From Eledone cirrhosa (lineage: Eukaryota), in the NCBI GenBank assembly GCA_964016885.1, contig OZ024741.1:371938001-372002000 (forward strand): 64,000 bases of DNA, read 5' to 3'. Under the pieces are notes generated by a model that saw only the letters and a program-made list of their open reading frames with translations, made no database searches and was not told where the DNA came from. This document shows, piece by piece, positions 111 to 59,702 of the stretch. A program made the translations under genes and the position numbers. The first letter of the stretch is position 1; each line of letters opens with the position of its first letter.

Positions 111-2145
111 CCTGTTAAGAATCATCCTGTTCAGGGTCTTTGCCACAAGTGACGTCAGTGAGATCCCCCCGGTAGTTGTTGGTGTTAGAGAGATCTCCCT
201 TCTTTGGCACTGGGACGATGTTACTGATCCTCCACTGATTCGGGGCAACTCCTTTTTCCAGTGCCCCGTTACAGAACCCCAGGATGATATCATCAAAATC
301 ACACCTCTTCATCACCTCTGATGCCACTCCATCTTCTCCATGATCCTTGCCCTCCTTGATCCTCTTCTTGGCTCTCTGAAGCTCCTCTCAGGTGAAGGGC
401 TCTGTCTCAACATCCAGTTCCTCAAACAGCCGCCTGTAGGGTCCTAAAATGGTCTAGTCATTTCCTCTTCCTATCCTCGGGCCCCGTTCCCTGGATCTGA
501 CTCGAACACCTTCTCTTCCTCCCTGTGATCTCGTTGATGATCATCCAGCTCTCCTTACATCCAGATCTGTCAACCGCTCTCTCCAGACTTCTGATCTTCT
601 CTATCAGTGCCTCCTCTCTGACCTCAGTGTAAGCGGTACAGAGCTCTTCCCTCATCACCTCCATAGTCTCCATCCTCTCCTCCGTAGGATCAGCATAGAA
701 TTGGTCCCTGGCAGCTTTCAGGTGTTCTCTGGCTGCACACACTTTTGGGTTTGCAGAGCTGACGTGCTTCCCTTTATTCTTTTTCCTCGGCACCAGGGCT
801 TCACTTGCTTCCGCCACTGCATTGGTGAAGTGCCCGTACCTCCTCGTCACACTCTCCTCAGTCCATCCAATCTCTCTCTCCTCTGACTCTCCACACAGAG
901 CACTAAAACTGTTTCTCACTTCCACTGTGAACCTCTCCTGTAGCTTATCATCTTCCTTGAAAGCTCCCCAGTCATAGATTGTTCTCCGGGGCTGAGCCTT
1001 GCTCTTTCTTAAGCTCACGCGGACCTCACTCATAACAAGCCGGTGGTCACTACCCAGTGTACTGAAATAGCTGTATGGTTCCGTGTTCAGAACACTATTC
1101 CGCCACTTTTTCCTCACCAGAATGAAATCAATCTGGGACTTGGATAGGTGCATATCTGAGATGTAGGTCCACATCTTCCCCAGATTCTTCCTAAACCTTA
1201 GGTTGGTCGCCATCAAGTTCGCCTCCAGCAGGGTGTCTCTCAGTAGTCTTCCATTTCGGTTGGTGTTGTTATGGAAGTACCAGCAAGGATCTTCACTGCC
1301 CTCCTTACTCAGGTGTGCATTGAAGTCCCCCAAAACAAGCAGGATATTGTGTGCCTGAGTGGTGTTGACAGCTCTACACACCTCCTCATGGAACTCTTCT
1401 GCATTCACATCGCTGTCCCCCTCGGTTGGACTATAGGCTGAGATGACTGTCAGTCTTGGGTTTCCATTGAAGGTCACCCTCAACACTCGCGGGCAGATAG
1501 GCATTATTTCCCTCACCAACAGATTAGTTTTTGCACTGAACACAAAACTCACTCCTCCTACTGCAGCATTTGTTGTGTTCTTCACTGCCGATGTAGTGAT
1601 GAGCTGGCTCTTCTTCCCAATCATGACACTCCTCACGGGTTCATCGTGTAGAATCCTGTGTTCTTGGATCGCAAGTATCTGTATACCACTCTCCTCGAAC
1701 AGATGTCCCAACTCCTCTCTCTTCTCCAGCGTCCGAATAGTCCTCACATTCAAAGTGCCCATATTGATGGCTCTTCTGCAGGACAAAACTGCATTCTTTA
1801 TATTTGTCTCAGAGACAGCTGATCCATCATCCACTGGCCCTCTCTGTGGCTCTAAGCCAGCATAGTCATAACGACCAGGCTGCTCCTTGACAGTGTAATT
1901 AGGGGCTCTAACCCTAGTGCTGTTAGATCGACTCTCCATATTTCTTTTCAATGGTTGACAATACCTTACCGCGCCACTCGAATAAGGTAGTTATTTAACC
2001 CATAAATGGAGCCCTAACAGGTACTACCACCCTGGGCCAGGGTAGACCTGGGAGTCATGACAACTAAGGGGTAACTCCACATTCCCCACATCTCCTGAAC
2101 TCCCGTACTGGAGCCTTGACACTGGATGTAGTTTAATGTCATACC
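111..2145 (-). mobile_element. RTE-clade LINE, inverted 5' half (5' UTR, APE endonuclease, start of RT), disrupted
   Basis: ORF 458-1951 has APE motifs (GTLNVRT, AIQEHR, SAYSPT, LGDFNAH, SQIDFIL, SDHRLV). Frame-disrupted continuation at 111-450 has PVPKKGDLS..NYRG and ends at ILNR against (TA)n. Confidence 0.9.
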
Positions 2146-3375
2146 CAGGATCCAGCCTGAGATGGAGAAGAAGCTCAGGGACAACCAGAACGGCTTCAGA
2201 GAGGGTAGATCAACCACCAGTCACATCCTGATGCTGGGGAGGATATTAGAGGGAGCTAGAGCAAAGTGCCTTCCTGCGGTCATGGTTTTCATTGACTTTA
2301 GGAAGGCCTTTGATTCTGTGGACCGTTACTGCCTGATGAAGATCTTACAGGCTTATGGAATCCCCAAGAAGATAGTGGACCTGATATCACTGCTCTACAC
2401 CAACACCAAAGCCCAAGTCATTACACCTGATGGGATGACAGAGTTCTTTGAGATACTGGCTGGAGTGCTCCAGGGAGATACATTGGCTCCCTATCTTTTT
2501 ATCATCGTAGTGGACTATTGTATGCGCCTTGCACTGGAGAAACACCAGGACTCTGGCTTTACTGTAGCACCGGCTCAGAGCAGGAGAGTTAGGGCGAAAA
2601 AGGTATCGGATGCTGAATTTGCCGACGACATAGTTTTGGTGACAAATAGAGTGAAGGAGGCAGAGGATTTGATGCGGGAGGTTGAGACTGTGTCGATGAG
2701 TGTGGGGCTGAGAATGAATGGGACTAAAACAAAATATCTGGTAGAGAATGTTGAGAAGCCAGAGGGGATCACTAATGTAGGCGGGAAGCCGCTGGAATTG
2801 GTTGAGGACTTCCTGTATTTGGGAGCAAGGATTGGGAATACGGAAGATGATGTGGTTGAGAGGAAGAGCAAGGCCTGGGCGGCGTGCCACAGCTTGAGAT
2901 CGGTGTGGAAGTCGGACCTTCGTAGAGACCTGAAAATCCGCCTCTTCATTGCTGTAGTGGAGTCTGTGCTGCTGTATGGGTCTGAGACTTGGACACTGAC
3001 CAAGAAACTCACTCAGATGGTGGATGGGTGCTACACGAGAATGCTGAGGATGGCTCTGAACATTAATCAGTATACACTGAGGATGAAAAACTCAGAGCTG
3101 TATGGGAGCATCCCAAAAGTCAGCTCAAAAGTGACACAGAGGAGACTGAGGTTGGCTGGACATGCTCACCGACATCCAGAGTTGACATTGCACTCAGTGC
3201 TGCTTTGGGAGCCCCTACATGGACACACTAGACCAAGGTTAACGTATATTGATGCCCTAAGGACAGACACTGGTCTGTTGGAGATGCAGGACATGGCAGC
3301 GATAATCAGGGACAGAGACCGCTGGAGAGAACTCGTCCATGGATCTCGGGAATTTTACCCACCTTAGATAGATAT
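2145..3375 (+). mobile_element. RTE-clade LINE, 3' half (reverse transcriptase) with short (TAGA)n tail
   Basis: ORF 2162-3367 has QNGFREGRST, FIDFRKAFDSV, GVLQGDTLAPYLF, FADD, FLYLG, LLYGSETW and an RTE-type C-terminus. It resumes at (R)IQPEM, where the inverted half stops. Confidence 0.93.
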
Positions 3376-8939: not shown

Positions 8940-10925
8940 GTAAAAGAAAAGAAATTGTCATCCCTTGAATCGCAAGAATATTTTGCAAATTTTGAAGGTG
9001 CCAGCTATCGCAGCCATTTGTAGACTATGAATTAGAGAGCTGCGCTTTTTGTCCGCAAATCCAAGTTCAGTCATACTTTGGTCCAAGCGGGTTGGTATAT
9101 AACCCGTAGCACCAATAATGATGGGTATGAAGCTAAAGGTGTAGCTTGGATACTGGATTTGTAAACTCCTCATCAATAGTCCGTAGATGTCCTCCTTCTC
9201 CTGTATTTTTCTGACAACGTTTACATCAAGTGGGCAGCTGATCTCCACAACAGAACACGTTTTCAATGTGTGGTCCCAAACTACAATATCAGGCCGGTTG
9301 TGCTTTAATTTGGTGGCAGTTTTTATTTTCAGGTTCCACCAGTATTCCTTAGTGCCATCTGTCTCAATATATTCTTCCTCGTTTGTTGTTAATTTTGTTT
9401 TCCGAAGTGCGTTCCAGATGGTTCTAGCTATCCCATCGTGTCTCATGGGGAGGTAGTAGCGAGATGACATTCTTTCGCAGCTGGCAACAATGTGGCTTAC
9501 ATCCTCGATCTTTGTTTTACATAGCCTACATTTATTGTCAGCTACTGGCCCTCCTCTTTTGTGCAGCAGATATTTGTTAGGGAGTTCTTGTTCCTGTATT
9601 GCATAGAGATATCCCTCAAGGTGTGATGTCATAAACTTGTCGGAACTCCATGCCAGGCTTTTTGAGTGGTTTATCCCCTCTATGGTCTGTGTTTTACGCC
9701 TCAAGTATCCATGCACAACTTTTTCTGTAAATTGGTCAATTTTTTTATCTTGTTTGAACATTGAATAGGATCTTCCGATTTCTCTGGGTGAGAGATTTAT
9801 ATCAGGCTTTATTCCATATCTCTCCTCCAGATCAGTCGCTATTCTAATGATATTTCTTTTTTCATGCTCATAAACCTGGGCAAGATGGTTGCCAACCTTT
9901 TTCCTCTGTTGAAGGTGTTGCTTCAGTGTTACTATCTGGGTCTCATATGTTGTTAATATTGATTTTAGGTTAACTTTGCCTTTCATCCTTACGGGGTCGA
10001 TAAAATAAAGTACCAGTAATGCACTGGGTAATTTGCTGGCCTTGTGCCTAAAAGTAGAAACAAATATTGATTTTAGACCCCGGCCACCTTCCTTGCGTGA
10101 GAAGTATAGCCTATCCACATCACCATTGATGTTAAAGTTCCCAGTAACACTGAGAAGTTTGCGAGTTCTAACATCCATCTCACTTAGTTCTTGCAATGAC
10201 CAGTTCAGTAGGCCAAATGTTGGCGTTAGAATTGGCACAGCATAAGTATTGTGGGCAATGTATTTGTTGTATGCTGACAGTTCTGATGACCATATTTTCT
10301 TTACTCTTCTGAGGTATTCAGTTCTGGTTCTCTCCTTATTTATGGGTCCATCATATCTGACATTCTCATCCTGTCCAAGATATCTGTAGTTGTCACCTGA
10401 CTGCAGAGGTTGTATTGTCAGGCTGTTCATCTCTAGATTTCTAGAGGAGGGCACAGCTCTTCCACGTTTTACTGCCAAATATGCACACTTGGACTCACCA
10501 AATTTCATTTTGATGTCGGTTGAAAATTGTGTAATGAGGTTCCATTGTTTCTTGATGTCATTGATATTTGGCCCATACAACTTCAGGTCATCAACAAAGA
10601 AAAGATGGGAGATACTTCTGGGCCCACTTCTTTGTCCACCTTGTTTCCTGAGTAGGTAAGATAGTGGATTCAGTGAGAGAACGAAGAGTAGCACTGACAA
10701 GCTATTACCCTGAAAGATGCCCTTCTGGTAATGTATCTTATCAGTCTTAACCTGCTCCTTCTCACCTCTAAGGATCAAATTGGTGTACCAGTTCTTGGTC
10801 AGGCGTTCAACAGCAGCTACCAATGGTTGTGGGACTTTAGCTAACTGTAAAGCCTTAATAATCCACCCATGAGGTACACTATCGAATGCTTTTTGATAGT
10901 CCAGCCACACGACAGTCATGTTTCT
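8940..10925 (-). mobile_element. 5'-truncated non-LTR retrotransposon with RT and restriction-like endonuclease (R4/Dong-like)
   Basis: WLDYQKAFDSVPH, GIFQGNSLS, HLFFVDDLKLY, YRYLG; C-terminal CCHC knuckle (CRLC..HIVASC), RHD, RPDIVV..VEISCP; flanked by (TA)n. Confidence 0.9.
9969..10062 (+). mobile_element. 5'-truncated Nin/Deu-type SINE inserted in the LINE ORF
   Basis: gcctttcatccttacggggtcgataaaataaagtaccag core; TSD aatattgattttag at 9955-9968 and 10063-10076. Confidence 0.88.
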
Positions 10926-11189
10926 GCGATTCTTTGTTGTTTTTTGCCTGAGTATGTATGTAAATGTATATATATATGTATATATGTATGTATATATATA
11001 TATAAAGGTTTACATATATATATATATATAAAGTCATAAATATATATGTTTTGCAACGGGTCACTTTGTGGCTCAATGAAGAATTAATAAATTAAATAAT
11101 CAGAGCTATATATCATAAAACATTTATCTGGCGATTCTATAGACATGTTTTATGATATGTATATATATATATGTATATATATATATAAA

Positions 11190-12470
11190 TACAATATATT
11201 AATAAATACAATATATTAATAAATGGAAACTATATTTATAAAACCATAATTATTTTATTATATATATTTCAAGGGCAACCAAGGTAAATTATAGTGCGCT
11301 TTCTTCAGATAAAACACAGATTTGTTTTATAAATAAATATTGATATACCCGGAAAAAAGACATTAATACATCTTAATAAATTTTTTAAATACTTATTTTT
11401 GTAATATATCTTATTGTAATTAATTAAATTTTAATTAAATTTTTAATTAAATTATAACAATATTCTTTTGTAAACATTTTTTATCATTAATTTAATTTTT
11501 TAACTTTACCTTTATAAATAATATAAACATAGCATAATGAACGATATATTTACATTGTGACTACTCATCCATGTAAAATTTATTTCTTCGCTCACTTCGC
11601 CCCTCTTTCTCTTTCTCTTTCTTCTCTCTCCCTCTTTTTTTTCAATTTTTTTTTCAATATTCTTTTCTTTCTCCCTCTCAATTCTTTTTCCTTTCTCTCT
11701 CCATCTCAATATTTGTTCTTTCCTTCACTCTCTCTCAATATTATGTCTTTTCTCGGCGGTGGATTGGCAGTATCGGTAGAGGGTCGGACGCCATGCTTTC
11801 CAGCGTAGTTACGTCCCTTTACCATCTGAGTTCAAATCCCGCCGAGGTTGACTTTGCCTTTCATCCTTACGGGGTCGATAAAATAAAGTACCAGTAATGC
11901 ACTGGTAATTGCTGGCCTTGTGCCTAAAGTAGAAACAATATTATGTCTTTTCTCTTTTTTCTTCTATCTCTTTTTCTTTCTCTTTCTATTCTCTTCTCTC
12001 TCCCATTTCATAATTCTCTCTCCCTCCCTTTCAATATATTGTTTCTCTCTATCTCTCTTCCTCTCAATTTTTTCTCTTTATTTCTCTCCCTCTCAATTTT
12101 TTGTCTCTCTCCCTTTTACATCTATTTTTGTCTCTCTCCCTTTTACATCTATTTTGTCTCTCTCCCTTTTACATCTATTTTCTTCCAATAGTTTAATTTA
12201 AATAAACCGTTGTTTTTTTCAATTTTTCCGACACTCATTTGCATACTCACTCACTAATTTGTATCACCCTCAATTATCTCCACTATCCAGCGAATTTCAA
12301 CCGTTGAGCTTGTCTTTTTTCCGGGTATGTCAATATTTATTTATAAAACAAATCTGTATTTTATCTGAAGAAAGCGCACCATAATTTACCTTGGTTGCCC
12401 TTGAAATATATATAAAATAATTATGGTTTTATAAATATAGTTTCCATTTATTAATATATTGTATATTTAC
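11190..12470. mobile_element. PLE 3' UTR/pseudo-LTR with inverted duplicate; HHRs at 11253-11314 (-) and 12359-12420 (+)
   Basis: 11190-11355 is the reverse complement of about 12320-12470. HHR reads ttttat CTGAAGA..GAAA tatata TA ataaaa. Downstream tail matches 22390-22430. Confidence 0.75.
11755..11942 (+). mobile_element. tRNA-derived SINE with Nin/Deu-like core
   Basis: A-box-like tggcagtatcgg, B-box gagttcaaatcc, conserved core; six related copies in the window. Confidence 0.88.
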
Positions 12471-12569: not shown

Positions 12570-15283
12570 CTAGCAGTTTAGCCCGGCGTTGCTCGGGTTT
12601 GTTCATTTGCTATGAAAAGTTACATACAGGTAAACGTGGTTTGAAAGCGAATAAGCTTATCAATTAAGTGCATAAAGCAGTTGAACCGGTTATTAAAAGT
12701 TACGAACCAATTAGCATTTTGGTCAATCAATGATGGGTTAATAATCCTCCAATAGCGAATTTAGTAGACCAAAGTTGCAAGATGGTGGCCCTGATGCCGC
12801 TGGGTGTCAGATCTGTCCGCCATGGGATACCCTACCAGGAAATGGTGTTCCAGACGGCATAGCTCCAACACCTGCACCAACATCTATAGCACCTCTTTGT
12901 AGACGATATTGCGTGTCATCCCTTGAGGAATGTAAGCAAAAAGTCCATTCCTGCTCCCTGCGCGGGAACAGGCAACATAAAGTTGGCCATGGGAGAAGCA
13001 TGGTTCCTCCAAATGGATGCCCGCCACCGACAATGTTTGCCCTTTTGACTTGTTAATGGACATGGCAAAACATGGTCTCACCGGGAATTGGGATCGTCGG
13101 AAATAGAACGGGATATCTGACGCCGAAGGGAAAAGGTTCATCCTTAGAATGAAAACATTCTCCCCTCTTCCGCACCCCGTTACAATGGTGGCCTCAATCA
13201 AGTGGGTGTCAGTGACTTGACGACCATGCGAGTACCGTTGCACTGCTTTTTGTGGACGCAAGTTCCTTATTAGCATAATGGGACAGCCAACCCTAAGCTT
13301 AATAATGTGAGGTGGGAGCCCTGGGGGCTCAAGGAGATTTAATAACTCAACCGGATAATTAACGATATCGTCGGGGTCTGATTTGAAGATGTGCTCTTTA
13401 CCGGGAATTCTTCTCAATCAGCTGCTCGTTAATAAAATTAACCATGGTATTTTTCGGAGCAAGGATGACTCTTTCGCTGAGCCAATCGAGGTTTTTAAAG
13501 TTAGATGAGACATTAGGAAAAACTGCTTCCCAAAGGTCAGAAGGGCTGCTCACAATGTTGCACAGAGTGTCGATTGCTATGCCGCCCTTGTCATCCGCAG
13601 GGATCTTGCCCTCACCAAGTGCTAAAATGTTCTGTGCTGCAGACATGTTGTCACCATGCAAATTAGCACGCATATTTGTGCTCAGGTACAAATTATTCAC
13701 CTGGAGCCACAACATGGACGACTTAAGACAGGCACACACTTCATCAGCTCTTGTCCATTTGGGGATGACAGGCAGCGTTTTCCGAAAATCAAATGATAGC
13801 AGAAGGGTTACGCCACCCATAGGAGCCGTAGAATCCCTAATGTCTTTCCGGGCCCTGTCCAATGCCTCAAGGGCACCCTTGTGTGCCATTGTGCACTCAT
13901 CCCAAACAATGAGGCAACATCTTTTGAGAACCAGAGCTTTGTGTGAACTCTTGCTGATATTGCATGTTGGTGTCTCAGTTTTTACTAAATCCAAAGGGAG
14001 TTTAAAGGTTGAATGTGCTGTCCTGCCTCCCGGCAGCAAAGTAGCAGCGATCCCAGACGATGCAACGGACAACGCAACTTTTTTCTCCTGACGAATCTTA
14101 GCGAGAATCAAATTCGATACAAAAGTTTTTCCGGTACCCCAGGGGCGTTTTTTATTGGGGGGATCCGGGGGTTTTTTTTACCTTGAGGTATAACCAGTCA
14201 GTAGTTCCTTCAAAGGCTCTGGCGGTTCCGGAAGAGGGGGCAAGGTGACGTTACCGTTTAAGCAGCACATTGCAGGTGGCTCCCCAGCCCACTTTGTAGC
14301 ATTGCAGAATTGGCAATTGAAGCGCATCTCGCCTATATTTATGTCAGAGCGCATCGAGTAATTAACGTTTTGCTCATACTTGAAAGCCCGTAGGTGCCAG
14401 TATGGGCTGTTCGGGCTCGTCACACCGCGTGCAGCTTCTCGCCGTCGACTGTTACGCTTGAACGTAGAACATTGGTCGTGTGGTTGGTGGGAAGGTCTGA
14501 CAGCAATAGCAGAAGCAACATTTGCAATGCTAATGGACCACCCGTCTGCATCTTCAGAAGCCATGGAAGTAGTCATAGCCGCAACGTCCGTAGGAAGGCG
14601 AGCCGTCCGTTGTTTTAAACGTTCCAAAGACCTGGAAGCAGCATTAGTCGCAGCGTTTCTAGCCAGGCGCTTCGACCTTTGTTCACGGCTCTCTGAAGCC
14701 CTGGAAGAAGCCTGGTATGAAACCATTTTGGCTAGGCGTGCGGTGCGCTGTTGGAAACTTTCAGCGGCTCGACATTCTGCTGAATATAAGGCTGTCTGTG
14801 AAAGTCTTGAAGCATTTTCCTGAGAGGACTCGTTTGCTATAGTAGCCTTTTGCGCCACTGCTGACGCGGTATGTCGACTGAGGCGACTTCTCTTTTTAGG
14901 TGGCATTTTATGTCCAAAGGAAAGGGTGAAAGTTACTTCTACAGAAAAATTGACTTTGAAAGTCTATTGTCTGTTTATGAATATTGTTATTGTTGTTGTG
15001 ATACAAATGTTAGTAAGTAAATGGGTATCGAAAAATAAAGGGTGAAAGTTACTTCAACATAAAAATTGACTTTGAAAGTATAAGGCTGATAATTGAATGT
15101 AAAAAGATTGATAAGAAAGCCCCCCCCCCCCCCCCCAAAAAAAATGTACAGGTATTTGTATGTATGTGTGTATTTTTATGTCGAAAAAAAAGGGTTAAAG
15201 TTACTTCTACAGAAAAATATAGTTTGAAAGTGTAAGGCCGATGTTTGTGTAAATTAAGTGACAGGTATTTGTATGTATGTGTG

Positions 15284-16583: not shown

Positions 16584-16702
16584 ATTTTATAGAAGGAACT
16601 TCTACAGGACTAGTACTGTTTCATTCAGATGAAATCTTCAGGAAGCTTCCTAAAGATTTCATCTGAATGAAACAGTACTAGTCCTGTAGAAGATCCTTCT
16701 AT

Positions 16703-16707
<5 letters not shown>
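16584..16707. ncRNA. Palindrome made of two back-to-back hammerhead motifs
   Basis: Centre aagctt at 16643-16648. Left arm (-) cttc CTGAAGA tttcatctgaat GAAA cagtactagtcctg TA gaag; right arm has a mutated core CTAAAGA. Same family at 40965-41012 (-). Confidence 0.75.
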
Positions 16708-18890: not shown

Positions 18891-22440
<3,550 letters not shown>

Positions 22441-22800: not shown

Positions 22801-23016
22801 CAAACGAATCGAATGTTATTATTAATATTCGAAAAACTCAAAAATTTGTTTATATTATATATATATATATATATATATAACGGAGGAAATGTGGTAAGAA
22901 ACCAGGTGGACCATAACGCACCAAAGTACTCAATACTTAGGGTAGTAGAGTGGGTAATAGGAACGAGTAGGTCCCCGACGGCTGAGCTCAATCCGTTTCG
23001 ACGGCTAATTCTGGAC

Positions 23017-24867: not shown

Positions 24868-25772
24868 TAATTGAAAAAGTAGAGAATAACATGGTCAACA
24901 GTACAAAAAAGGTGATTTATTTACGGTCTAACAATTGTTTCTCTGATAAAGTTGTCTAAAGATTGCTGAACACTAGAAGCAGTGCCACTCAATTTCAAAT
25001 ACAATGCTAGCTCGATCAGATCTTCAGAAACTGTTATAAAAAATATATATGACCGGAAAATTTACAAATTCGAATTACATCATCAATAATAATATTAATA
25101 ATAAAGATATAGGGAGAGAAGGGGAAAGAAAGGGAGATAGCTACAGAAGAGAAAGAAAAGAAAAGGAAAAGAAAAAAGAGAAAAAGAAAGAGAAAAAGAG
25201 AAAGAAGAGGAAAAAGGAGAAATGAATACAGAGAAAAATATAGAGAGAAGAAAATATATGGAAATATGATGATAGGAAGAGGAGAGAAAAACATAAGGAG
25301 AAATAACATAGGACAGAAATAATGTGTCTTTATTATTAATATTATTATTGATGATGTAGGGCGGTGGATGGGCAGTATCGGTAGAAGGTCGGACACCATG
25401 CATTGAAGCATAGAGTTACGTCCCTTTATGATCTGAGTTCAAATCCCACCGAGGTTAACTTTGCCTTTCATCCTTACGAGGTCGATAAAATAAAGTACCA
25501 GTAATGTACTGGGTAATTGCTGGCCTTGTGCCCAAAATAGAAACAATTATTATTGATGATGTAATTCGAATTTGCAAATTTGCCGGTTATATATATTTTT
25601 TATAACTGTTTCTGAAGATCTGATCGAGCTAGGATTGTATTTGAAATTGAGTGGCACTGCTTCTAGTGTTCAGCAATTTTTAAAGAACTTTACCAGAGAA
25701 ACAATTGTTAGACTGTAAATAAATCCCTTTTTTTTGTACTGTTCACCATGTTATTCTCTACTTTTTCAATTT
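24868..25772. repeat. Fold-back pseudo-LTR pair, each arm with an extended-stem-II HHR (24923-25034 -, 25608-25713 +)
   Basis: Arms of about 220 bp; gttt CTGAAGA tctgat..atcaga GAAA caattg TT agac. Confidence 0.75.
25360..25545 (+). mobile_element. Nin/Deu-type SINE
   Basis: Same family as 11755; TSD attattattgatgatgta at 25341-25358 and 25546-25563. Confidence 0.9.
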
Positions 25773-27215: not shown

Positions 27216-27276
27216 TTCTATTATATATATTTCGAAGGTACTGTGCTGTTTTTCAGTACATCCTCATCAGATAAAA
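27216..27276 (-). ncRNA. Type I hammerhead
   Basis: ttttat CTGATGA ggatgtactg..cagtaccttc GAAA tatata TA atagaa. Confidence 0.72.
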
Positions 27277-28009: not shown

Positions 28010-28546
28010 TTCTATAATTTTCGGTGGAAGCAGGGAGTGCGTGGCTCTGATGATCGCTAAACAGCGTGAAATAGACTGTTAGCTTCTCTCCCTTCTTTCG
28101 CCGAAAAGAAGTAAGTGACATAGTCACTACTTTAAAACTGATAGCGTATGGACTTCAAAATGTTTTTAAATAAACATACGGTATATTGCCAAATATACTA
28201 CACATACATTCATGTATACATCGCTATTTCAGAGCACCAATCCTAATACCTAATTTTTGCTGGACCGGCAATCGTTCTGTATAATCAGCTCCTGATTATT
28301 ACTGGAATTCTGTAATAATCCAGCTTCTATAATGTTCGGCGGAAGCAGGGAGTGCGAGGCTCAAATGATCGTCAAACAGCGTGAAACAGACTGTTAGCTT
28401 CGCTTGCCGAAAAGAAGTAAGTGACATAGTCACTACTTTAAAACCGATAGCATAAGGTCTTCAAAATGTTTTTAATTAAACATACGGTATATTGCCAAAT
28501 ATACTATACATACATTCATATATACATCGCAATTTCAGAGCACCAA

Positions 28547-29499: not shown

Positions 29500-31004
29500 A
29501 TGAAGAGAGAAGAAACATATAATTAGAAGAAAGATATAATTAGTAATAAAATGTATCATACCTAAACTGCTCCTAGATTCCTCGACTACGAGCAGTTTAG
29601 GTATGATACATTTTATTACTAATTATATCTAAATGTTTCTTCTCTCTTCATAATGTATTTTTAACTCTGATACCGGTTCAGTCTGATTCAACCGGATTGG
29701 TCTGTCCCAGTCATTCATTGAGCAACATCGGTAAGGTTGGCACCATTAACTCACGGTTGGGTGTGGATGCATTCATGTATATGTGTGTGTCCGCATGTAT
29801 CTGTGTGTTTCTAAATATATTGTTCATAACTCCCTCTGGTCGAGTAATCTTTGAAGTGTGGTGACTGCTGGAAAGCTGCCATTACTCATACTTCTCGCCC
29901 CCTTCACCACCTCTTCTACGGCTTCGATATAAATACCCCCTCCGCCTCCGTGGTATTTTCTTCGGGGTTATAAGAGGCTTAGCTCTGTTTCTCGACCGTT
30001 ATATCGCGTGACTATCTCCCCCTCCGCCTTTTGGGATTCTTTCTCATGTCGTGTAGACGCGTTCTTGAGGCTAGTAAAATGAGGTATCCTCTTGATAAGT
30101 CGGCAGACCTCGCAAAGACTCTATATCTTTATGATGTATTGTTTTTGTTTATGCCACGAAACTACATAGTCGAGGAATCTAGGAGCAGTTTAGGTATGAT
30201 ATATTTTATTACTAATTATATCTAAATGTTTCTTCTCTCTTCATAATGTATTTTTAACTCTGATACTGGTTCAGTCTGATTCAACCGGATTGGTCTGTCC
30301 CAGTCATTCATTGAGCAACATCGGTAAGGTTGGCACCATTAACTCACGGTTGGGTGTGGATGCATTCATGTATATGTGTGTGTCCGCATGTATCTGTGTG
30401 TTTCTAAATATATTGTTCATAACTCCCCCTGGTCGAGTAATCTTTGAAGTGTGGTGACTGCTGGAAAGCTGCCATTACTCATACTTCTCGCCTCCTTCAC
30501 CACCTCTTCTACGGCTTCGATATAAATACCCCCTCCGCCTCCGTGGTATTTTCTTCGGGGTTATAAGAAGCTTAGCTCTGTTTCTCGACCGTTATATCGC
30601 GTGACTATCTCCCCCTTCGCCTTTTGGGATTCTTTCTCACGTCGTGTAGACGCGTTCTTGAGGCTAGTAAAATGAGGTATCCTCTTGATAAGTCGGCAGA
30701 CCTCGCAAAGACTCTATATCTTTATGATGTATTGTTTTTGTTTATGCCACGAAACTACGTAGTCGAGGAATCTAGGAGCAGTTTAGGTATGATACATTTT
30801 ATTACTAATTATATCTAAATGTTTTTTCTCTCTTCATAATGTATTTTTAACTCTGATACTGGTTCAGTCTGATTCAACCGGATTGGTCTGTCCCAGTCAT
30901 TCATTGAGCAACATCGGTAAGGTTGGCACCATTAACTCACGGTTGGGTGTGGATGCATTCATGTATATGTGTGTGTCCGCATGTATCTGTGTGTTTCTAA
31001 ATAT

Positions 31005-31008
<4 letters not shown>
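29500..31008 (+). repeat. 593-bp tandem non-coding unit (about 2.4 copies plus inverted 5' piece) with U3:A8 HHR (family A)
   Basis: Near-identical copies; HHRs at 30087-30176 and 30680-30769; third copy at 34021-34640 (-). Confidence 0.85.
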
Positions 31009-31119: not shown

Positions 31120-31230
31120 TAGGAACGAGTAGGACCCCGACGGCTGAGCTCAAGCCGTTTCGACGGCTAATTCTGGACCAGAATTAGCCGTCGAAACGGC
31201 TTGAACTCAGCCGTCGGGGTCCTACTCGTT

Positions 31231-31235
<5 letters not shown>
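31120..31235. repeat. Near-perfect palindrome made from the 3' half of an HHR-bearing repeat
   Basis: Arms contain GAAA cggcttga(g/a)ctcagccg TC; single copy of the same sequence at 22957-23015. Confidence 0.75.
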
Positions 31236-31276: not shown

Positions 31277-31480
31277 GGAAAAATTTGAACAGGGACAAAA
31301 CAGAGTGGCAGTACAACGAATGTTTATTAAGTTCCCGCTCTGGAGAGTGGGATGTTGGTGGGGGACGACGTTTCGGGCACAAGTCCTTCCTCAGGTGAGA
31401 AGTGTGTGGGAACAGAAGTCAAAGGGTGCGTAGGGGAGTGGTGGAGAGACATGGAAGGAAAGACCAAGTGTGGGAAGGTA
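31275..31480 (-). mobile_element. PLE pseudo-LTR-like fragment with HHR-like core
   Basis: CTGAGGA aggac-ttgt-gccc GAAACGTC then AATAAA; related to 6290-6450; stem I poorly paired. Confidence 0.45.
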
Positions 31481-31492
31481 TATATATATATA

Positions 31493-31549
<57 letters not shown>

Positions 31550-31555
<6 letters not shown>

Positions 31556-32144
31556 GACGTAAATAAGAAAGTTATGAAAATTGACTTACTTACTAAAATT
31601 TCACTCCAACTAATTAGTTTCTGTAAGGGGATAAATATGGTTACGGAGCGTATCCATAGAGAAACCTTACGTCATCAGGGAGTCTATTCTCAGCTAAGCT
31701 TCCAGGCAATGCGAGGACACTGGGAACTTATATAAAAATAATTCAGTGGATGGAAAAAAGCGAGCGGGGACTAGATTCCAAGACATTGAAAAATTCACTG
31801 CCTACTTGGTCAAGTGGCAAATTCAAAAGAATCAATCACGTGACACTGAGGTTAATCAGTGAGGAGTGGGGTGCTATTAAGACAGGACCTAGCCACTACT
31901 ATTAATCATAGTAGTAATTTCGGCAAGTTTTGCTCAACAAATAATTTGGAGATAATTATAAAGAATTAGTATATCTACCAACATATGTATACAGAGGCAT
32001 ACCTATGCTAGCAAATATATATGTTTTGTCTTAGTAACTTTGTGGTTCTATGCAAGGGGATGCAGAACAATTATATGAAAGACGTAAATAAGAAAGTTAT
32101 GAAAATTGACTTACTAAAATTTCACTCCAACTAATTAGTTTCTG
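31550..32144 (-). repeat. About 525-bp tandem non-coding unit with HHR (family B)
   Basis: HHR 31603-31683: actcc CTGATGA cgtaagg..ccttaca GAAA ctaattag TT ggagt; the repeat restarts at 32077; second locus 38782-39306. Confidence 0.85.
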
Positions 32145-32691
32145 TGTATATGTGTGTCGAGCTTTTTTAATGAGGGCTCATATATTCTAAACCATTCATG
32201 CGATTTCTTTGAAATTTTTTACAGAGCTTCTCCTTTCACAATACCTGTACATGATCTACAAAGGCTTTCAAAAATCGATATTGGGGCCATTGAAGACATT
32301 AAAAAAGTTTCGGTTATTTATGTGAATTTTCGTGATTAAGTAACACAAGAGTTATGTTTCCTAATCAAGAGTTATCTTTCGTAATTAGCCTCAGTCGGGT
32401 TTTAATTTACTCTTTCTACTTGAAACAAAGATGATAACAATATCATTTCGTATATTTCACAACCAGCAATCTATAACCTTCTACTTGAAACAAAGATAAT
32501 AACTTCACAACCAGCAATTTATACTGCTTGAAACAAAGATAATAACAATATCATTTCGCTGGAATAGTGCCTAAGGTTTTCATGTTTGCATAAAGTACGT
32601 TTTTCTTCTATGTATTCAAATTTACTTTGTTTAGTTTAATGAGCTACATCGAAAGCTACTTGAACCGTCCAAAGGACGGGTAGTTTAGCTA

Positions 32692-34020: not shown

Positions 34021-34022
<2 letters not shown>

Positions 34023-34640
34023 TATGAAGCGAGAAGAAAGATTTAGATATAATTAGTAATAAGATGTATCATACCTAAACTGCTTCTAGATTCCTCGACT
34101 ACGTAGTTTCGTGGCATAAACAAAAACAATACATTATAGAGATATTGCTTTGCGAGGTCTGCCGACTTATCAAGAGGATACCTCGTTTTACTAGCCTCAA
34201 GAACACGTCTATATGATGTGAGAAAGAATCCCAAAAGGCGGAGGGGGAGACAGTCACGTGATACAACGGTCAAGAAACAGAGCTAAGCTCCTTATAACCC
34301 CGAAAAAAATACCACGGAGGCGGAGGGGGTATTAATATCGAAGCCGTAGAAGAGGTGGTTAAGGGGGCGAGAAGTATGAGTAATGGCAGCTTTCCAGCAG
34401 TCACTACACTTCAAAGATTACTCGACCAGAGGGAGTTATGAACAATATATTGAGAAACACACAGATACATGCGGACACATACATATACATGCATATATCC
34501 ACATCCATCCTTGAGTTAATGGTGCCAACCTTAACCGATGTTGCTCTATGAATAACTGGGACAAACCAATCCGAATGGATTAGACTGAACGAGTATCAGA
34601 GCTAAATGTACATTATGAAGAGAGAAGAAACATTTAGATA
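34021..34640 (-). repeat. Family A unit (one monomer plus short terminal redundancy), HHR 34092-34178
   Basis: Reverse complement of the 593-bp unit, more diverged, with the same TTGATAA core and ACTACGTAGT stem III. Confidence 0.85.
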
Positions 34641-34662
34641 TAATGTGTTTCTCAATATATTG

Positions 34663-36060: not shown

Positions 36061-36262
36061 ACATATATTATATATACCATCTATCTTTGCCAGTTTAATC
36101 CATTACATTCAAGCGGAATATTCTAAAGTTTTTACAAATATTTATATATTCCAGAAAATACTAAATAGATTTTATAACAACTTAAAAGCTATCTCCAGGA
36201 AGAGGAAAACGCAGGGGGAAAAGGAAGAAGAGGATATTGGCATATTCCTTTAGCGCCGATAC

Positions 36263-37345
36263 ATGGAAAATAAAACGATAAAGGATATTCTAGAAAAAAT
36301 AAACGATGAAACCCTAATTTTTAATGCACCTATATTTATCTACATTGTACTATGTATGGTACTTGGCACACTTGGAAACTGCGCGGTAACTTATATATAT
36401 TATCGAAAATTGAAGAAAACAGCGATAAATATGTTTGTGGCATATCTTGGTCTATGTGATTTATTAACCTGTGTAGTTTATATGCCTTTTGATATTGTTT
36501 CCCTAAGATTCACGTTTACCTTTAGCAATGAAGTCACTTGTCATACGAAACACTTTCTGTTAAATGTAGGGACTATTTGTTCAGGACAGATTATCTTCTT
36601 TATAGCAATAGAAAGATATATTCGCGTGTGTCATCCTTTTCGCAATCATTTATCTCGCAGCAAAGCAATAATGGCGGTACCAATGATATTTCTTTTCACC
36701 ATATTAATAAGCATACCAACACTTTGGGTTTATGGCAGCATATCCATGAAGAGTCCTAGAGAAGAAGTTGAAACTGAGACTTGTTCCTTTTATGAGAACG
36801 AAGTTCTTTTAATGTTCGCTTTGCTTTATTATAGTATATTGTTAATTATTAATTGTTTAGTTTTTATCGTTCTCATGATACTGTATTACCGTATTGCACT
36901 CTGTATTTTGAAATATAAGAAAAATATGATGAAAGATTTAATGGATATCATATCACCTTCGAATCAATCTCCAGCTATTAGAGGATCAATTGATGTTGAT
37001 GAAAACGTACATACCAGTAAATGCCAAATGAAACCACAAATGCTTGAGCAGGTAACTGAAGCGTTTAAAGAAAAAGAAAAAGTAATTAAAAAAACAAACA
37101 TAATATTTTTTATAGTCACCGTGATCTGGATGATTAGCTATCTGCCTCATTACATTTCAAGTATATGGGTAATTCTTCACAACCACCTACATCCTGAGAA
37201 CAACATTAAATATATTTTCTACGGATTAACAAGTCGTTCGTTCTTTGTGAGCTGCGTTGCTAATCCCTGTATTTATGGACTTTTCAATAATCAGTTTCGA
37301 CAGGAACTCTATACGTTACTTTTTAATATGTTTTGCCGTAATTAA
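36263..37345 (+). CDS. Rhodopsin-family (class A) GPCR, neuropeptide-receptor-like orphan, intronless CDS, 360 aa
   Basis: Seven hydrophobic segments; GTLGN (TM1), LGLCDL..P (TM2), IAIERY..VCHP (TM3), WMISYLP (TM6), NPCIYG..N..FR (TM7/H8); extracellular Cys pair; uninterrupted frame. Confidence 0.93.
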   Translation: MENKTIKDILEKINDETLIFNAPIFIYIVLCMVLGTLGNCAVTYIYYRKLKKTAINMFVAYLGLCDLLTCVVYMPFDIVSLRFTFTFSNEVTCHTKHFLLNVGTICSGQIIFFIAIERYIRVCHPFRNHLSRSKAIMAVPMIFLFTILISIPTLWVYGSISMKSPREEVETETCSFYENEVLLMFALLYYSILLIINCLVFIVLMILYYRIALCILKYKKNMMKDLMDIISPSNQSPAIRGSIDVDENVHTSKCQMKPQMLEQVTEAFKEKEKVIKKTNIIFFIVTVIWMISYLPHYISSIWVILHNHLHPENNIKYIFYGLTSRSFFVSCVANPCIYGLFNNQFRQELYTLLFNMFCRN

Positions 37346-38731: not shown

Positions 38732-38781
<50 letters not shown>

Positions 38782-38787
<6 letters not shown>

Positions 38788-39300
38788 AATTAGTATATCT
38801 ACCAACATATATATACAGATGCATACCTATGCTAGCAAATATATAGGTTTTGTGTTAGTAACTTTGTGGTTCAATGCAAGGGGATGCAGAACAATTATAT
38901 GAAAGACATAAAATAAGAAAATTATAAAAATTAACTTACTTACTAAAATTTGACTCCAACTAATTAGTTTCTGAAAGGGAATAAACATGGTTTCCGAACG
39001 GAACAACATGGAGAAAATCCTTTCGTCATCAGGAAGTCTATTCTCAGCTAAGTTCCCAGGCAATGCGTGGACACAGGGAACTTATACAAAAATAATTCAG
39101 TGGCTGGAAAAAAGCAAGCGAGGACTAAATTCCAGGATATTGAAAAAATCACTGCCTACTTGGTCGGTGGCAAATTCAAAAGTATCAATCACGTGACATC
39201 GAGGTTAATCAGTGAGGAGTGGGGTGCTAATAAGACAGTAATTAGTTGGAGTGAAATTTTAGTAAGTAAGTTAATTTTTATAATTTTCTTATTTTACGTC

Positions 39301-39306
<6 letters not shown>
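38782..39306 (-). repeat. Family B unit, HHR 38952-39038, with short inverted piece 39239-39306
   Basis: gacttc CTGATGA cgaaagg..cctttca GAAA ctaattag TT ggagtc. Confidence 0.85.
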
Positions 39307-39339
<33 letters not shown>

Positions 39340-41439: not shown

Positions 41440-42583
41440 GGGGCTTAAGAGTCATGCAATTTCAGAGACCCATCACTATGCCCCCTTAGTAATGAATGCA
41501 TGACGAAAAACGTAGTCTACAGGTGCAAGGTCACAACCCCTAACTCGGAGCACCACTACATAGGGTCCACGGCGACGAGCTTCAAAGATAGGTGGTATAA
41601 CCATCGCCATTCTTTTAACAGAATAGAAAATAGGAAATGTAAGGCCCTTTCTGAATTGATCTGGAAGCTCAAACTTGAAAAAACCCCGCACTCTCTGGTC
41701 TGGTCCGTGGTTAGAAAGGTTCCCCCAGACAGAGGTGGGTCTGGTATTTGCAACATCTGTCTTAGTGAGACACTTGAGATACTTCATGGCGGAACCAAGC
41801 TATTAAACAGAAAGGCCGACTTATTCGGCGCCTGCAGACACCTCAGGACGGGAACTTTCCTCAAGCTATATGGATAAACCCCGGTTCTGGCCTCCCACAA
41901 CGCCCCCCTCCTCCCTGTAGGTCCACTACACCCCCGTACCAATGACCAATGGACTACAACCACCCATAGTTTGTGGTCCCTACGGTGGATTGTCCACCGG
42001 ATCCTCTTCTGGTTAGGAGGCAACAAAACCTCGTTTATTGAACCTGAGGAAACCCCCCCCCCCCCGGGAGTGGCCCACACAGGAAGAACAATCATACCAA
42101 GGAACTAACCCTATAGACATGAATGAGTGTCCGCAACCGTACATAGTGTGTGTATACTGGGATTACGTGAGTGTACACACCCATGTGAACGCAACGAAAT
42201 ACTAATACCCCAGGTTGCATTTGAAAAATCTTACAGTGTATGCTTATGAGTATGTTTGTATATGCTCTCTTATATGAGTGCACATGTGTATATAGACATA
42301 CACGCGCATCCAGAGGTATAAAAGTGTGGCAGGGTATGTGTATCTGTACTAAGGGATTTGCCTAAGCTCCAAAGCCCCCAAGCTATTGCTGTGAAGATAT
42401 ATATCACACTCTACTTTGTCTAGTCTAAACAATAACTTTTCCAAACACCCACTTTACTTTTCTTTAAAAATAACACCCACCTAGTTTTATGTCCGCTTTA
42501 TACTTGGATTTGGGGGCCTCTGTCGTATATATATATGCACTTGTGCGTACATATATATATATACACACCTGTATGGATTTGTG

Positions 42584-42652
<69 letters not shown>

Positions 42653-43312
42653 TGAGGGGTAAGGTGTGAGTGTATGTACAAGTCAACCAACATAGGTCTT
42701 TTTATTTCTAAACTCTCTAAGTATTTGACTCTTACCATAATTTTCAGTTTTATCACCCCACATAAATTCCTCAATTTGTATGTGTGGATGTGTGTGTGTG
42801 TCTGTGGGAGTGGGTGTGAATGTATGTGCAAGTCAACCAACATAAGTCTTTTTATATGTAAATTTTCTAGTATTCTGCTCTAACCATATTTTTCAGTAGT
42901 ACCACCCTACATAAATTCCTCAATTTAAGAATGACCTGTAGTATCGAATTTCATTCTATAAACCCCAATTTAATATATATCTGACCAGGAATGCTTTTTG
43001 TGAAAATCAGTCATATGGAACTATTGTCATCTTGCCTGGTGGTTTGAACTTTACAACACCACCTGCCAACCCTACTAGCATCTACAAACTGACCAATGAG
43101 AATTAAGATTATTCCTGCTGACAACATTAAATTATTCCTAACAAGCTCATATGTCCCAAGGCTCTGATACAATCAACACCATAAACACAGAGCTGGCATA
43201 TCTAAGAACTGACTAACTGCCTGATGAGGTTATAACCACTCAATGGCTATCATCGAAATATATATAGCAGTAAATAAAGGATTATGAGTTCATGCAATTG
43301 ACTTATGTTTCG
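41440..43312 (+). mobile_element. Neptune-like PLE 3' fragment: GIY-YIG ORF, long 3' UTR, terminal HHR
   Basis: SCNFRDPSLCPL..CMTKNVVYRC..YIGST..DRWYNH..CNICLSE..CRH; HHR at 43216-43271. Confidence 0.85.
43216..43271 (+). ncRNA. Type I hammerhead at PLE 3' end
   Basis: actgc CTGATGA ggttata..tatcatc GAAA tatata TA gcagt, then AATAAA. Confidence 0.8.
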
Positions 43313-43779: not shown

Positions 43780-44970
43780 TGTATAATAAAGCCAAAACAA
43801 TGCAGGTATGGACATAGAATAAAGAATGCAAATGCAAAAGATATTGTTGACAATTAGTCTTTTACCTTAGGTTTATTTAAATGTCCTTAATTTTCGAGAT
43901 AATATCTCTTCTTCGGAGGGAAGTAAAGCGGTTAAACCAGTGTTCTAAATAGTTTGCCAAGTCATGCTGACAGGAAATGGTATAGAGTATCTGTTCTATC
44001 TCTAATGTCAAAGAGTTAAGGTTAGGTGGATAAAGAGTAGTCTCCCTTTAAAAGGGTTTTTTGTTTGTACATGCCTGTTTAAGTGTGTGGGAGAATGCGT
44101 GAAGGTGTAAGTATGTGAGTGTGTGTGTGTGAGTGTGAGAAGATATGGCTATACGTAAATGTGGGGGATAGATGTTATCTCGTGTTAGAACTGGTCTTTG
44201 TGTGTATGTGTGTGTGTGAGAGAGAATAAGTGGAGGTGTAAGCGTGTGTGTGTGTCTGTGTGTGCGTGCGTGTGTGCGTGTGTGTGGGGGGTGTAAATAT
44301 GGGGCTAGATGCTCTATCAAGTTATAAATTGGGTGTTGAGTTCTAGTCTATTATTGATTGGTGGTTGTGTTTTGTCTATAATTAGTGCTTCCTTAATTCT
44401 AAGATTGCCGCGGTATCTTTCCTTAGATTCTATCCTAACTGTTATGGTTTTGTCGGTGTTTTTGCATTTCACTAGGTGTTTCTTAAATGAGGAAGCGTTA
44501 GTATTGAGGTATTCTTTTATTCTTATGTGGAGTGGTCTGGTGGTGCTACCTACGTAGAAGTTGCTGCATTTGTCACACTCTAGTCTGTATACGACGTAAA
44601 CCTGGTGGCATAGGTCTGTGTCGTTGATGGGGCAGTTGGCTAGCCTGCAGCAGTTGTCATGTCTGGTGGATTGTCTTTTGGTTAGCTGTCCGCGTAGAGA
44701 AGTACCTGAGTGGGCCAGTTGGATATCTAGTCCTTCTCGTCTGATAGCTCTGCGGATGGCTCTTGTTGTTTCGTCACTGAAGTGTGGGAGCTTCAGGAAG
44801 CAAGTGTTAGTGCCTCGGGTGTGGTGTCCTCTGTTCTTTCGGGCACGGTTGTGGTGGATGTCGTGTATCCGTTCAGTTTGAGTACTTCCAGGAAATGTGT
44901 GGTGTGTGTGTCTTGGTCTCTAGCGTCGGTGCATTTGTTCTGGATACGTGCTAATTCGTTCGGAACGAAC
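43780..44970 (-). mobile_element. Penelope-like element 3' fragment of a second clade, with HHR-like motif at about 43885-43919
   Basis: Minus strand reads CPINDTDLCHQVYVVYRLECDKCSNFYVGSTTRPLHIRIKE..LRIKEALII; cct CCGAAGA agagata-t-tatctc GAAA at TA agg. Confidence 0.8.
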
Positions 44971-57694: not shown

Positions 57695-59702
57695 TAAATT
57701 TATAAACAAGAGGTATAAGTCAACATCTCATAATTTACTTCTTTCATTACTGTTATATATACTGCAGTGATACCCACAATTCAACAGCTATGACCTCTTC
57801 AGACAGTTAGAAGCAACGCATAGAAAAGATTTTAAAAAAACAAAGTTTTTCTGGGAGAAAATTAAAGTTTTTAACGATTATTTTTACTTTCTGATATTGT
57901 CAATTGTTGATGTTGTTATGTCAACGTCATGGTAACATATCATCACACTGCTTTCATCTATGGTGTTAATATAGTGCATTCCCATTGGTCAGTTTTGTAG
58001 AGTAACAATTTTGATACAATAACTACCATTAGAGGGAGAATTTTATGACAGAATTTAGCGAGTATTATATATTTACATTCACATTACTGGTACTTTATTT
58101 TATCGACCCCGTAAGGATAAAAGGCAAAGTTAACTTCGGCGGGATTTAAACTCAGACTGTAGAGTTACGTCCCCTTACAGTCTGAGTTCAAAACCCGCCG
58201 AGGTTAACTTTGCCTTTCATCCTTACGGGGTCGATAAAATAAAGAACCAGTAATGCACTGGGATAATTGCTGGTCTTGTGCCAAAAGTAGAAACATTTAT
58301 ATATTTACAATCACAAGGAGAGACTATCAATGTGGGGTGTGCAGCATGTCCTAAGATCAAGCTCTGCCAACGCTTTATTTATTATAATATTCATAGTAGT
58401 ACATATATATAACTACCCAAATAAATTATCTCAGTATGTGGAAATGTTGGGATGGGTCCTACCAAAAGGTAAGTATGTCTCTAAGGCACACTATAAAAGA
58501 TTATGCGGGTGTAGTCCGTTAAGGGCCCTACTTGGCATGGTTGCTGACCATATAGCTTGCAGAAAGTACCCTTGCTTTGGTGTCGACAAGCACAAAAGAA
58601 GTCAGCCCTACGATTAATTATCTGCCAGCCACCGCTGAGTATTTCAAGAGTCTCACTCAGACAGAGCCTACAAATGTCAGACCCACACCCGTCAGGGTGT
58701 ACCTCCCTAACCTTTGACCATACCAAAGAATATAGGATATTATCCGACTTGAGCTTCCAAATCAGTTCTGAAAGGGCATTGCTCTTTCGTTTATCTACCC
58801 TATTAAAGGAGTGGCGGTGGTTATACCACCTGTCAACAAAGCTCGTAGATGTTGCACCTACGTACGCAGATATCGCATTATGGGTCTTAACTTTGCACTG
58901 GTATACTATATTTTTCACCAGGAATTCCCTGTTAAGAGGGCACGAAACAGGGTTTTTGCAGTTACAGGATGCGGTTGACACCTTTGTATTCACTGCGTGA
59001 TGTCCCGTGAGTAGGCTGGATCGGTCCGTCTCTGCGACTTGTATCGGGTCCTGGAGAGAATTAGCATTATCCAGGTCTGTCACTAGCCTAATATTCTCCT
59101 CTCCGAGGCTCTGCCGGGTGTCTCTAGAGTTGGTTGGTGCCTGTCTAAAGGTCCTAAGTCTGTTCCTATTACTACTATCTATGTGCAGGGCTAACTGTGC
59201 GTGGTTGAGTATGAGAGCTTCACCGTGTGTCTGTTAAATATATTATGGTACCTGTGGATTCTCGGGAAGCATTTGTCCAGCGCTCTAAAGAACAGGTGGG
59301 CCAGCCTGGTCTACAGACCCACCGAATATGGTGGGTTATACCAGGTTATTCTTCTATGCCTGGTGATGGGTGTGTGGAATGAAGAAGCACTTGGCCGCTG
59401 TAGAATTAGTGTAGCTCTGCAGTCCATATCACAGTCGTAGCCCCTTAGCACGGGTCTTCTACTACATGTTGCTCTTTCTCCTTTTTTAGGGTGATGTAAA
59501 CATTCACCCGTGAGCTCCCTCTGGATTACTCGGCCGTCTACTACAGTCTGTGTACTATATCTGGAGGCACTCTGATTTTTTATGTTTTCTGTGTTGCATC
59601 TAATTGCCTGAAGATGTCATAACTGTTGAATTGTGGCTATCACCGAAATATATATAACGGCAATAAAAACAGCAAATTTTGAAATGTTGACTTACACCTC
59701 TT

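What the first reader, a model, noticed from the sequence alone, without database searches (positions are those of the whole stretch)
31550..32144. About 525-nt HHR-bounded unit (family B) with covariation between copies
Seen: stem II is gtaagg/ccttac at 31603-31683 and gaaagg/cctttc at 38952-39038, a compensatory double change. Stem I changes from a C-G to a U-G pair, while the core and AACTAATTAGTT palindrome are invariant and the stem II loop diverges. The unit has terminal redundancy and no credible ORF. Inference: the RNA structure was under selection.
Basis: partly seen in the sequence, partly recalled or inferred. Interest (0 to 1): 0.8.

Follow-up and report, generated by a model that had tools for sequence, protein, structure and literature searches.

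The report
Hammerhead-bearing parasite of Penelope retrotransposons
This is a 525-base non-coding repeat with thousands of copies in this animal genome, whose hammerhead-ribozyme fold has been kept through compensating mutations, and whose insertions carry the marks of Penelope-like jumping genes, which likely copy it from a predicted self-cut RNA.

Summary
The unit is a 525-nt non-coding monomer; the hammerhead pattern matches 8,604 places genome-wide (control 0). Across subfamilies, 11 of 11 same-branch double changes in helix II and its distal hairpin keep pairing (null 0.24), and helix I is conserved on internal branches, so the RNA fold was selected. An all-pairs covariation test found nothing significant.

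The unit is not hammerhead-bounded. Its 3' ends fall at two fixed sites, 56 and 177 nt past the cut site, mostly in (TA)n. The 5' ends are scattered, and the 'terminal redundancy' is a Penelope-type partial tandem. Inverted insertions have one 'main' and one 'tail' end in 72 of 72 resolved pairs, and both arms share source variants. An autonomous Neptune-type element in this genome shows the same layout, but no partner with shared sequence was found. An internal strand is predicted to block the cut site in a circular monomer.

Verdict: a new variant of the non-LTR retrozyme / non-autonomous Penelope-like element. Cleavage, expression and circles are untested.

The parts
31552..32076 (-). Full 525-nt monomer; its 3' 'main' end abuts (TA)n at 31551
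32077..32145 (-). 5'-truncated upstream partial copy (pseudo-LTR), holding only the 3' half of the hammerhead
31603..31683 (-). Type I hammerhead: helix I 31679-31683/31603-31607, core 31672-31678, extra C 31671, helix II 31665-31670/31623-31628, extra A 31622, GAA 31621-31619, palindromic helix III 31609-31618, predicted cut 31608|31607
31635..31659 (-). Distal hairpin inside 'loop II', covarying between subfamilies
31854..31868 (-). Internal strand complementary to the cut site, helix III 3' strand and helix I 3' strand (predicted anti-hammerhead)
31837..31844 (.). Conserved GTCACGTG box; promoter role inferred
   Evidence: similar box in Neptune-type 3' UTRs
31727..31734 (-). TATA-like sequence about 50 nt before the core; varies between subfamilies; role inferred
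31957..32076 (-). First ~120 nt of the monomer = the 'tail'; 31957 is the second fixed 3' end site used in other copies
31480..31551 (.). (TA)n target microsatellite
38781..39238 (-). Second locus, arm ending in the tail; hammerhead 38953-39037; anti strand 39207-39221
39233..39309 (+). Second locus, inverted arm ending at the main end in (TA)n

Best explanation
It is a 525-nt non-coding repeat with a conserved type I hammerhead fold and Penelope-type insertion ends, most likely a non-autonomous Penelope-like element (non-LTR retrozyme) copied in trans by a Penelope-like reverse transcriptase-endonuclease. Steps: (1, inferred) a tandem copy is transcribed from an internal promoter just upstream of the hammerhead. 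(2, predicted) Two hammerheads pair through the ACUAAUUAGU palindrome, cut, and release a monomer that would be ligated to a circle, in which an internal strand covers the cut site. (3, inferred) The borrowed enzyme nicks both strands of a (TA)n tract. (4, shown as a pattern, inferred as a mechanism) The two target ends prime at two fixed UA-rich sites about 120 nt apart on the same RNA variant, one each. (5, shown) Each arm runs back through the cut site for a variable length, up to 3.9 units, and the two 5' ends are joined, giving partial tandems and head-to-head inversions.
For: Copy number: 8,604 full-pattern matches, 13,814 palindrome matches (control 106) and 10,470 tail-motif matches. 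Ends: in 142 of 144 loci with arms, 114 tail, 106 main and 18 unresolved ends; 72 of 72 resolved divergent pairs are main+tail, and 12 more pairs have an unresolved end. Target: 86 of 95 main ends and 41 of 65 tail ends run into TA. This layout is the one described for Penelope-like elements (PMC8557442; PMC3846280). An autonomous RT + C-terminal GIY-YIG family in this genome has a 3' hammerhead, TA targets and main+tail ends in 3 of 3 two-ended loci. The hammerhead shows the PLE traits of PMC4209133: an extra base between 9 and 10.1, long helix II, short helix I, palindromic helix III. Same template: segregating variants agree within a locus in 73 of 95 (arms) and 62 of 83 (tandems) cases against 1,746 of 11,500 between loci. 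Selection on the fold. Fold switch: the cut site pairs with the internal strand at P>0.5 in 14 of 16 circular monomers; the double hammerhead costs 2.9-7.9 kcal/mol against 7.1-16.9 for two single folds in 8 of 8 tested.
Against: No autonomous partner sharing sequence was found: none of 13 PLE 3' regions scored above shuffles, none of 30 Hydra-type or 70 GIY-YIG loci matched beyond neighbouring insertions and weak low-complexity hits, and no unit arm ran into its own ORF. The all-pairs covariation test was not significant. About 5 one-sided changes on internal branches break helix II; GAAATG/CCTTTC subfamilies carry a U.C mismatch. The C.A pair at the helix II base and a GUU site should slow cleavage (own knowledge), and only 1 of 9 Xenopus retrozyme dimers cut in vitro (bioRxiv 10.64898/2026.07.22.740005). 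5' ends do not pile up at the cut site (8 of 220 within q466-476, about 8 expected), so nothing in the DNA shows that cutting happens. A 4-nt indel differs within 20 of 61 multi-copy loci, more than a single template easily explains unless the copying slips there.
Confidence: 0.82

Rival explanations
1. Same non-autonomous Penelope-like element, but the template is a linear, largely uncut multimeric transcript (or two transcripts of one source locus) with template jumps. The hammerhead fold is then kept mainly as a dimerisation or protein-binding structure, and no circle exists.
For: Arms cross the cut site freely: 42 of 176 arms from motif-selected loci span two or more sites and 5 span three or more. 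There is no 5' pile-up at the cut. An internal strand is predicted to block cutting. Same-source arms fit equally well.
Against: The catalytic positions stay fixed while position 7 varies as in working hammerheads (partly biased by the search patterns). Helix I, which was not in any pattern, has 0.2 against 1.65 changes per site on internal branches. Sources of three or more units look rare, so long arms need regeneration.
Confidence: 0.4
2. The copies are 5'-truncated remnants (pLTR/3' UTR stumps) of an autonomous Penelope-like element, not a family that spreads by itself.
For: Such stumps are common (PMC4209133). Length and layout resemble the 3' UTRs of Neptune-type elements here. My sample is under 2% of copies.
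Against: The monomer joins head to tail to itself (171 internal junctions), in up to 3.9 units, across subfamilies 71-94% identical. No ORF continued from a unit in 142 loci, including 55 chosen to find exceptions. One unit end abuts the middle of another PLE's ORF (L279), which looks like a later insertion or a template switch.
Confidence: 0.08
3. A satellite or DNA-level repeat in which the apparent covariation is a by-product of a few subfamily expansions.
For: The all-pairs test was not significant; double changes are few independent events.
Against: Copies are dispersed with fixed 3' and ragged 5' ends. 11 of 11 double changes keep pairing (null 0.24, no draw reached it). One pair occurs as UA, AU, CG and GC. 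Folding is stronger on the ribozyme strand in 8 of 8.
Confidence: 0.03

Closest known systems
Metazoan non-LTR retrozymes (Cervera & de la Pena 2020, PMC7229834; Li et al. bioRxiv 10.64898/2026.07.22.740005)
   Same: Non-coding, AT-rich, type I hammerhead once per repeat, thousands of copies, coexists with PLEs, highly folded monomer; axolotl HHR_Amex2 also has a mismatch (U.U) at the base of helix II.
   Different: 525 nt against the usual 150-450 (the preprint reports 51-972). Mostly 1-2 unit dispersed insertions with inversions and a tail. PLE-type rather than canonical hammerhead. Cut site predicted to be blocked by an internal strand, which that paper says is unusual in metazoan retrozymes. 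Expression and circles are untested here.
EN+ Penelope-like elements, Neptune clade in particular (PMC8557442; PMC3846280)
   Same: Partial tandems (pLTR), head-to-head inverted copy, tail on one end only, (TA)n targets, hammerhead near the 3' end.
   Different: No ORF; tail about 120 nt against 30-40 bp; no sequence similarity to the autonomous families sampled here.
PLE hammerheads (Cervera & de la Pena 2014, PMC4209133)
   Same: Extra base between 9 and 10.1, long helix II, 5-bp helix I, palindromic helix III fit for dimers, conserved G10.1-C11.1 in that register.
   Different: A further A before G12, a 10-nt palindrome, and a 40-nt structured helix II extension.
Non-autonomous Chlamys elements such as MRC1 (PMC8557442)
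   Same: Non-coding, pLTR-forming, multicopy head-to-tail insertions.
   Different: Those share 3' ends with known autonomous families and most Chlamys lack hammerheads; here the partner is unknown.

Membership tests
Type I hammerhead ribozyme | Core CUGANGA...GAAA...UH around three helices, helix I open | tested here: met
   with one extra base on each side of helix II; no Rfam hit
Type I hammerhead ribozyme | R10.1-Y11.1 pair directly flanked by A9 and G12 | tested here: not met
   C and A lie between the core and the G-C pair in 133 of 136 segments; a natural U.U precedent exists (PMC7229834)
Type I hammerhead ribozyme | Self-cleavage | not testable with these tools
   needs an in vitro assay
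Non-LTR retrozyme | Non-coding repeat with one type I hammerhead per unit, in tandem | tested here: met
Non-LTR retrozyme | No LTR, PBS or PPT | tested here: inconclusive
   the redundancy is a variable partial tandem, not a fixed LTR; PBS and PPT were not searched
Non-LTR retrozyme | Expressed as linear and circular monomer RNA | not testable with these tools
   no RNA holder listed
Penelope-like element insertion | Partial tandem, inverted 5'-truncated copy, tail on one end | tested here: met
   72 of 72 resolved pairs
Penelope-like element insertion | Microsatellite (TA)n targeting | tested here: met
   86 of 95 main and 41 of 65 tail ends
Autonomous PLE | RT plus GIY-YIG ORF | tested here: not met
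Non-autonomous PLE | Shared end with an identified autonomous partner | tested here: inconclusive
   none among the families sampled; the genome holds many more (60,017 and 10,597 first-look candidates)

The most novel reading that the evidence does not exclude
A viroid-like switch in an animal retroelement: the tandem RNA cuts only as a palindrome-linked double hammerhead, the released 525-nt circle locks its own cut site with an internal antisense strand, and two reverse transcriptases prime on that one circle at sites about 120 nt apart, one per target end. This would explain the long-unexplained Penelope tail, inversion and pseudo-LTR in one step, and give a short natural substrate for testing it.
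Probability: 0.3. Interest if true: 0.75.

Novelty: new variant of a known kind. Interest (0 to 1): 0.5.

Why it matters
How Penelope-like elements build pseudo-LTRs, inversions and tails is described as open in PMC8557442, and the link between animal retrozymes and PLEs rests on co-occurrence and end homology (bioRxiv 2026). This family carries the PLE insertion signature itself and has thousands of young copies. That allows the rule to be counted: one main and one tail end per inverted insertion, both arms from one RNA variant. It also offers a small RNA with a predicted on/off ribozyme switch for direct assay. The class of element is already known, which caps the surprise.

Tried and rejected
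Rfam scans: no hammerhead family matched. The repeat finder was swamped by microsatellites. Sequencing runs: no RNA holder listed; the three contig runs are one sample and may be the window's source, so they are not independent. R-scape-like all-pairs test on 57 monomers: best pair E 0.5, a true distal-hairpin pair. Partner hunts that failed: Hydra-type endonuclease query; short-helix II pattern, which gave 35 hits that read as deletion copies bar one or two and whose 30 loci were not analysed further; negative-filter pattern; Pfam GIY-YIG search; palindrome-only and tail-only patterns. Metagenome contigs: 0 matches. A position-specific 4-nt indel between terminal and other copies was rejected (Fisher p=1). 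GUAAGU after the cut site as a splice donor was considered, but it can pair with ACUUA before helix I and could not be tested without RNA. A pile-up of 5' ends at the cut site was rejected. Literature searches for a description of this family or of the strict one-main/one-tail rule found none. The library lacks most subscription papers, I read no supplements, and Repbase/Dfam could not be searched, so it may already be catalogued.

Full report
Observation. The motif reads on the minus strand. At 31603-31683: helix I ACUCC/GGAGU, core CUGAUGA, an extra C, helix II GUAAGG/CCUUAC, an extra A, GAAA, the palindrome ACUAAUUAGU and U17, so the predicted cut follows GUU between 31608 and 31607. The period is 525 nt and no reading frame is credible. 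Rfam does not recognise this variant. The window lies in a 3.0-Gb animal genome. The only named relative of a neighbouring GPCR is from Octopus sinensis at 47% identity, so the host is likely a cephalopod; this rests on one gene.

Abundance. The hammerhead pattern has 8,604 exact matches (control 0), the palindrome 13,814 (control 106) and an independent tail motif 10,470 (control 0). I analysed 144 distinct loci (12 overlapping or duplicate ones dropped): the best DNA matches, the first pattern matches on contig C1, and 55 picked as possible exceptions. This is not a random sample. Full monomers fall into 16 clusters, 71-94% identical.

The unit is not bounded by the ribozyme. With q counting from the start of the monomer, the cut is after q470. 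3' ends fall at q526 ('main', 106 ends) or at q121 of the next unit ('tail', 114 ends), with 18 unresolved. 86 of 95 main and 41 of 65 tail ends run into TA, and several other tails into (CT)n. Both sites hold a short UAUA-like sequence that could anneal to a nicked (TA)n end (inference). 5' ends are scattered: 8 of 220 lie within q466-476, about what the neighbouring density predicts. The window's 'terminal redundancy' is one such truncated upstream copy starting at q454, with half a hammerhead. Many insertions have two head-to-head arms; 72 of 72 with both ends resolved have one main and one tail end, where independent choice would give about half (12 further pairs have an unresolved end). 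The second window locus is an example. This is the pseudo-LTR / inverted copy / one-sided tail layout of Penelope-like elements (PMC8557442, passages and section 11 read; PMC3846280, passages read), with a longer tail.

One RNA variant makes both arms. In 31 loci of the window's young subfamily, 26 variants segregate. They agree between arms in 73 of 95 cases and between tandem copies in 62 of 83, against 1,746 of 11,500 between loci, while private differences are alike (0.023-0.027 per site). In several loci neither arm is contained in the other (L020, L035, L129, L140, L145), so one arm is not simply a fold-back copy of the other. Arms pass through the cut site: 42 of 176 arms from motif-selected loci span at least two sites, the longest 2,046 nt. 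The template was therefore a circle or an uncut multimer; the DNA cannot tell which. Against a clean single template, a 4-nt indel is mixed within 20 of 61 multi-copy loci.

Selection on structure. Six fully paired helix II sequence types recur. On 16 representatives, helix II plus the distal hairpin is 96% paired, with 31 double-change cells and covariation score 0.53 against at most 0.09 when slid; two of the five measures did not exceed the shuffles. On a tree of 123 copies (4 of 127 dropped because a junction replaced part of the segment), internal branches carry 5 double changes in helix II and 6 in the distal hairpin, all keeping the pair, against 0.24 in rate-matched random column pairs. 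Helix I, absent from every search pattern, has 0.2 internal changes per site against 1.65 elsewhere, but a normal tip rate (2.5 against 2.25). Core and palindrome figures are biased by the patterns. Independent of that bias, the palindrome bin has the highest summed depth in three contig sets from one sample. Against: about 5 one-sided breaks in helix II on internal branches, and no significant pair in my all-pairs test. Whole monomers fold better than shuffles, more so on the ribozyme strand in 8 of 8 (z -2 to -9; 12 shuffles each).

A predicted switch. The consensus fold pairs 31854-31868 with the cut site, the helix III 3' strand and the helix I 3' strand. In circular monomers this pairing has P>0.5 in 14 of 16, and the active fold costs 2.5-9.2 kcal/mol, tertiary contacts ignored. 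Where the helix I 3' strand gains a base (GGAAGUG), the internal strand reads CACUUUCC or CGCUUUCC in 5 of 6 clusters, probably one or two evolutionary events, so this is weak support. In a tandem transcript the double hammerhead is cheaper than two single ones in 8 of 8 tested. PMC7229834 (parts 2-4 of 6 read) says most metazoan retrozyme circles leave the ribozyme free, unlike plant retrozymes and viroids. PMC4209133 (parts 1-2 of 4 read) lists the extra base at 9/10.1, long helix II and palindromic helix III as PLE traits and proposes circular templates.

Partner. Hydra-type, Neptune-type and other GIY-YIG elements abound (clade labels from the motifs in PMC8557442). One Neptune-type family (RT + C-terminal GIY-YIG) has CCAAT- and TATA-like boxes, then a hammerhead with a U.U pair at the helix II base, TA targets, and main+tail ends in 3 of 3 two-ended loci. 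None of 13 sampled 3' regions aligns to the unit above shuffles. The mobiliser is thus inferred by layout only.

Verdict. A real, selected RNA element, best filed as a non-autonomous Penelope-like element of the non-LTR retrozyme kind (bioRxiv 10.64898/2026.07.22.740005, parts 1-3 of 5 read, argues this origin for vertebrates). New here are the variant hammerhead, the predicted internal block, and the counted one-main/one-tail, same-template rule. Shown: sequence, copy number, ends, covariation, shared variants. Predicted or inferred: promoter, cleavage, dimer, circle, identity of the enzyme.

Noticed in passing
window 22280-22440, 11206-11362, 12311-12464, 27222-27270: A second hammerhead family with a TATATA-type palindromic helix III. 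The 22280-22440 stretch matches 39 of 285 fetched loci, including loci of the Hydra-type PLE whose endonuclease lies at 20348-20746, so it is likely that element's 3' end.
   Followed up: partly
window 24870-25093 and 25546-25770: Inverted pair with a third hammerhead type (CAATTG palindrome, long helix II), 94% identical arms.
   Followed up: no
window 43221-43266, 28047-28080, 16585-16706: Further hammerhead-like motifs; the last sits inside a 122-nt palindrome that looks like a fold-back element end.
   Followed up: no
window 29586-31006 and 34022-34644: 593-nt tandem repeat (2.4 units, with an inverted start) and an opposite-strand copy; 423 nt of it match the region downstream of a Neptune-type ORF in L186 at 93%. 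No hammerhead found by my quick scan.
   Followed up: partly
window 31122-31232: 111-nt near-perfect palindrome in (TA)n; its arm is a common repeat (43 of 285 fetched loci; also 22960-23016).
   Followed up: partly
window 36254-37342: Intronless 363-codon rhodopsin-family GPCR frame (PF00001); nearest named protein is an Octopus sinensis cholecystokinin-receptor-like at 47%.
   Followed up: partly
window 461-3364, 8961-11009, 13401-14963, 41449-41874, 44320-44919, 58484-59233: Decayed mobile elements: an APE-RT LINE, a second RT element, a PIF1-helicase (Helitron-like) fragment and several PLE endonuclease fragments.
   Followed up: no
L279:3915-4558: A unit tail end is joined without (TA)n to the middle of another PLE's ORF: a later insertion or a template switch between the two RNAs.
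   Followed up: partly
L213, L223, L228-L232, L235: Autonomous Neptune-type families here carry the U3-A8 hammerhead core variant with an ACCGGT palindrome.
   Followed up: no
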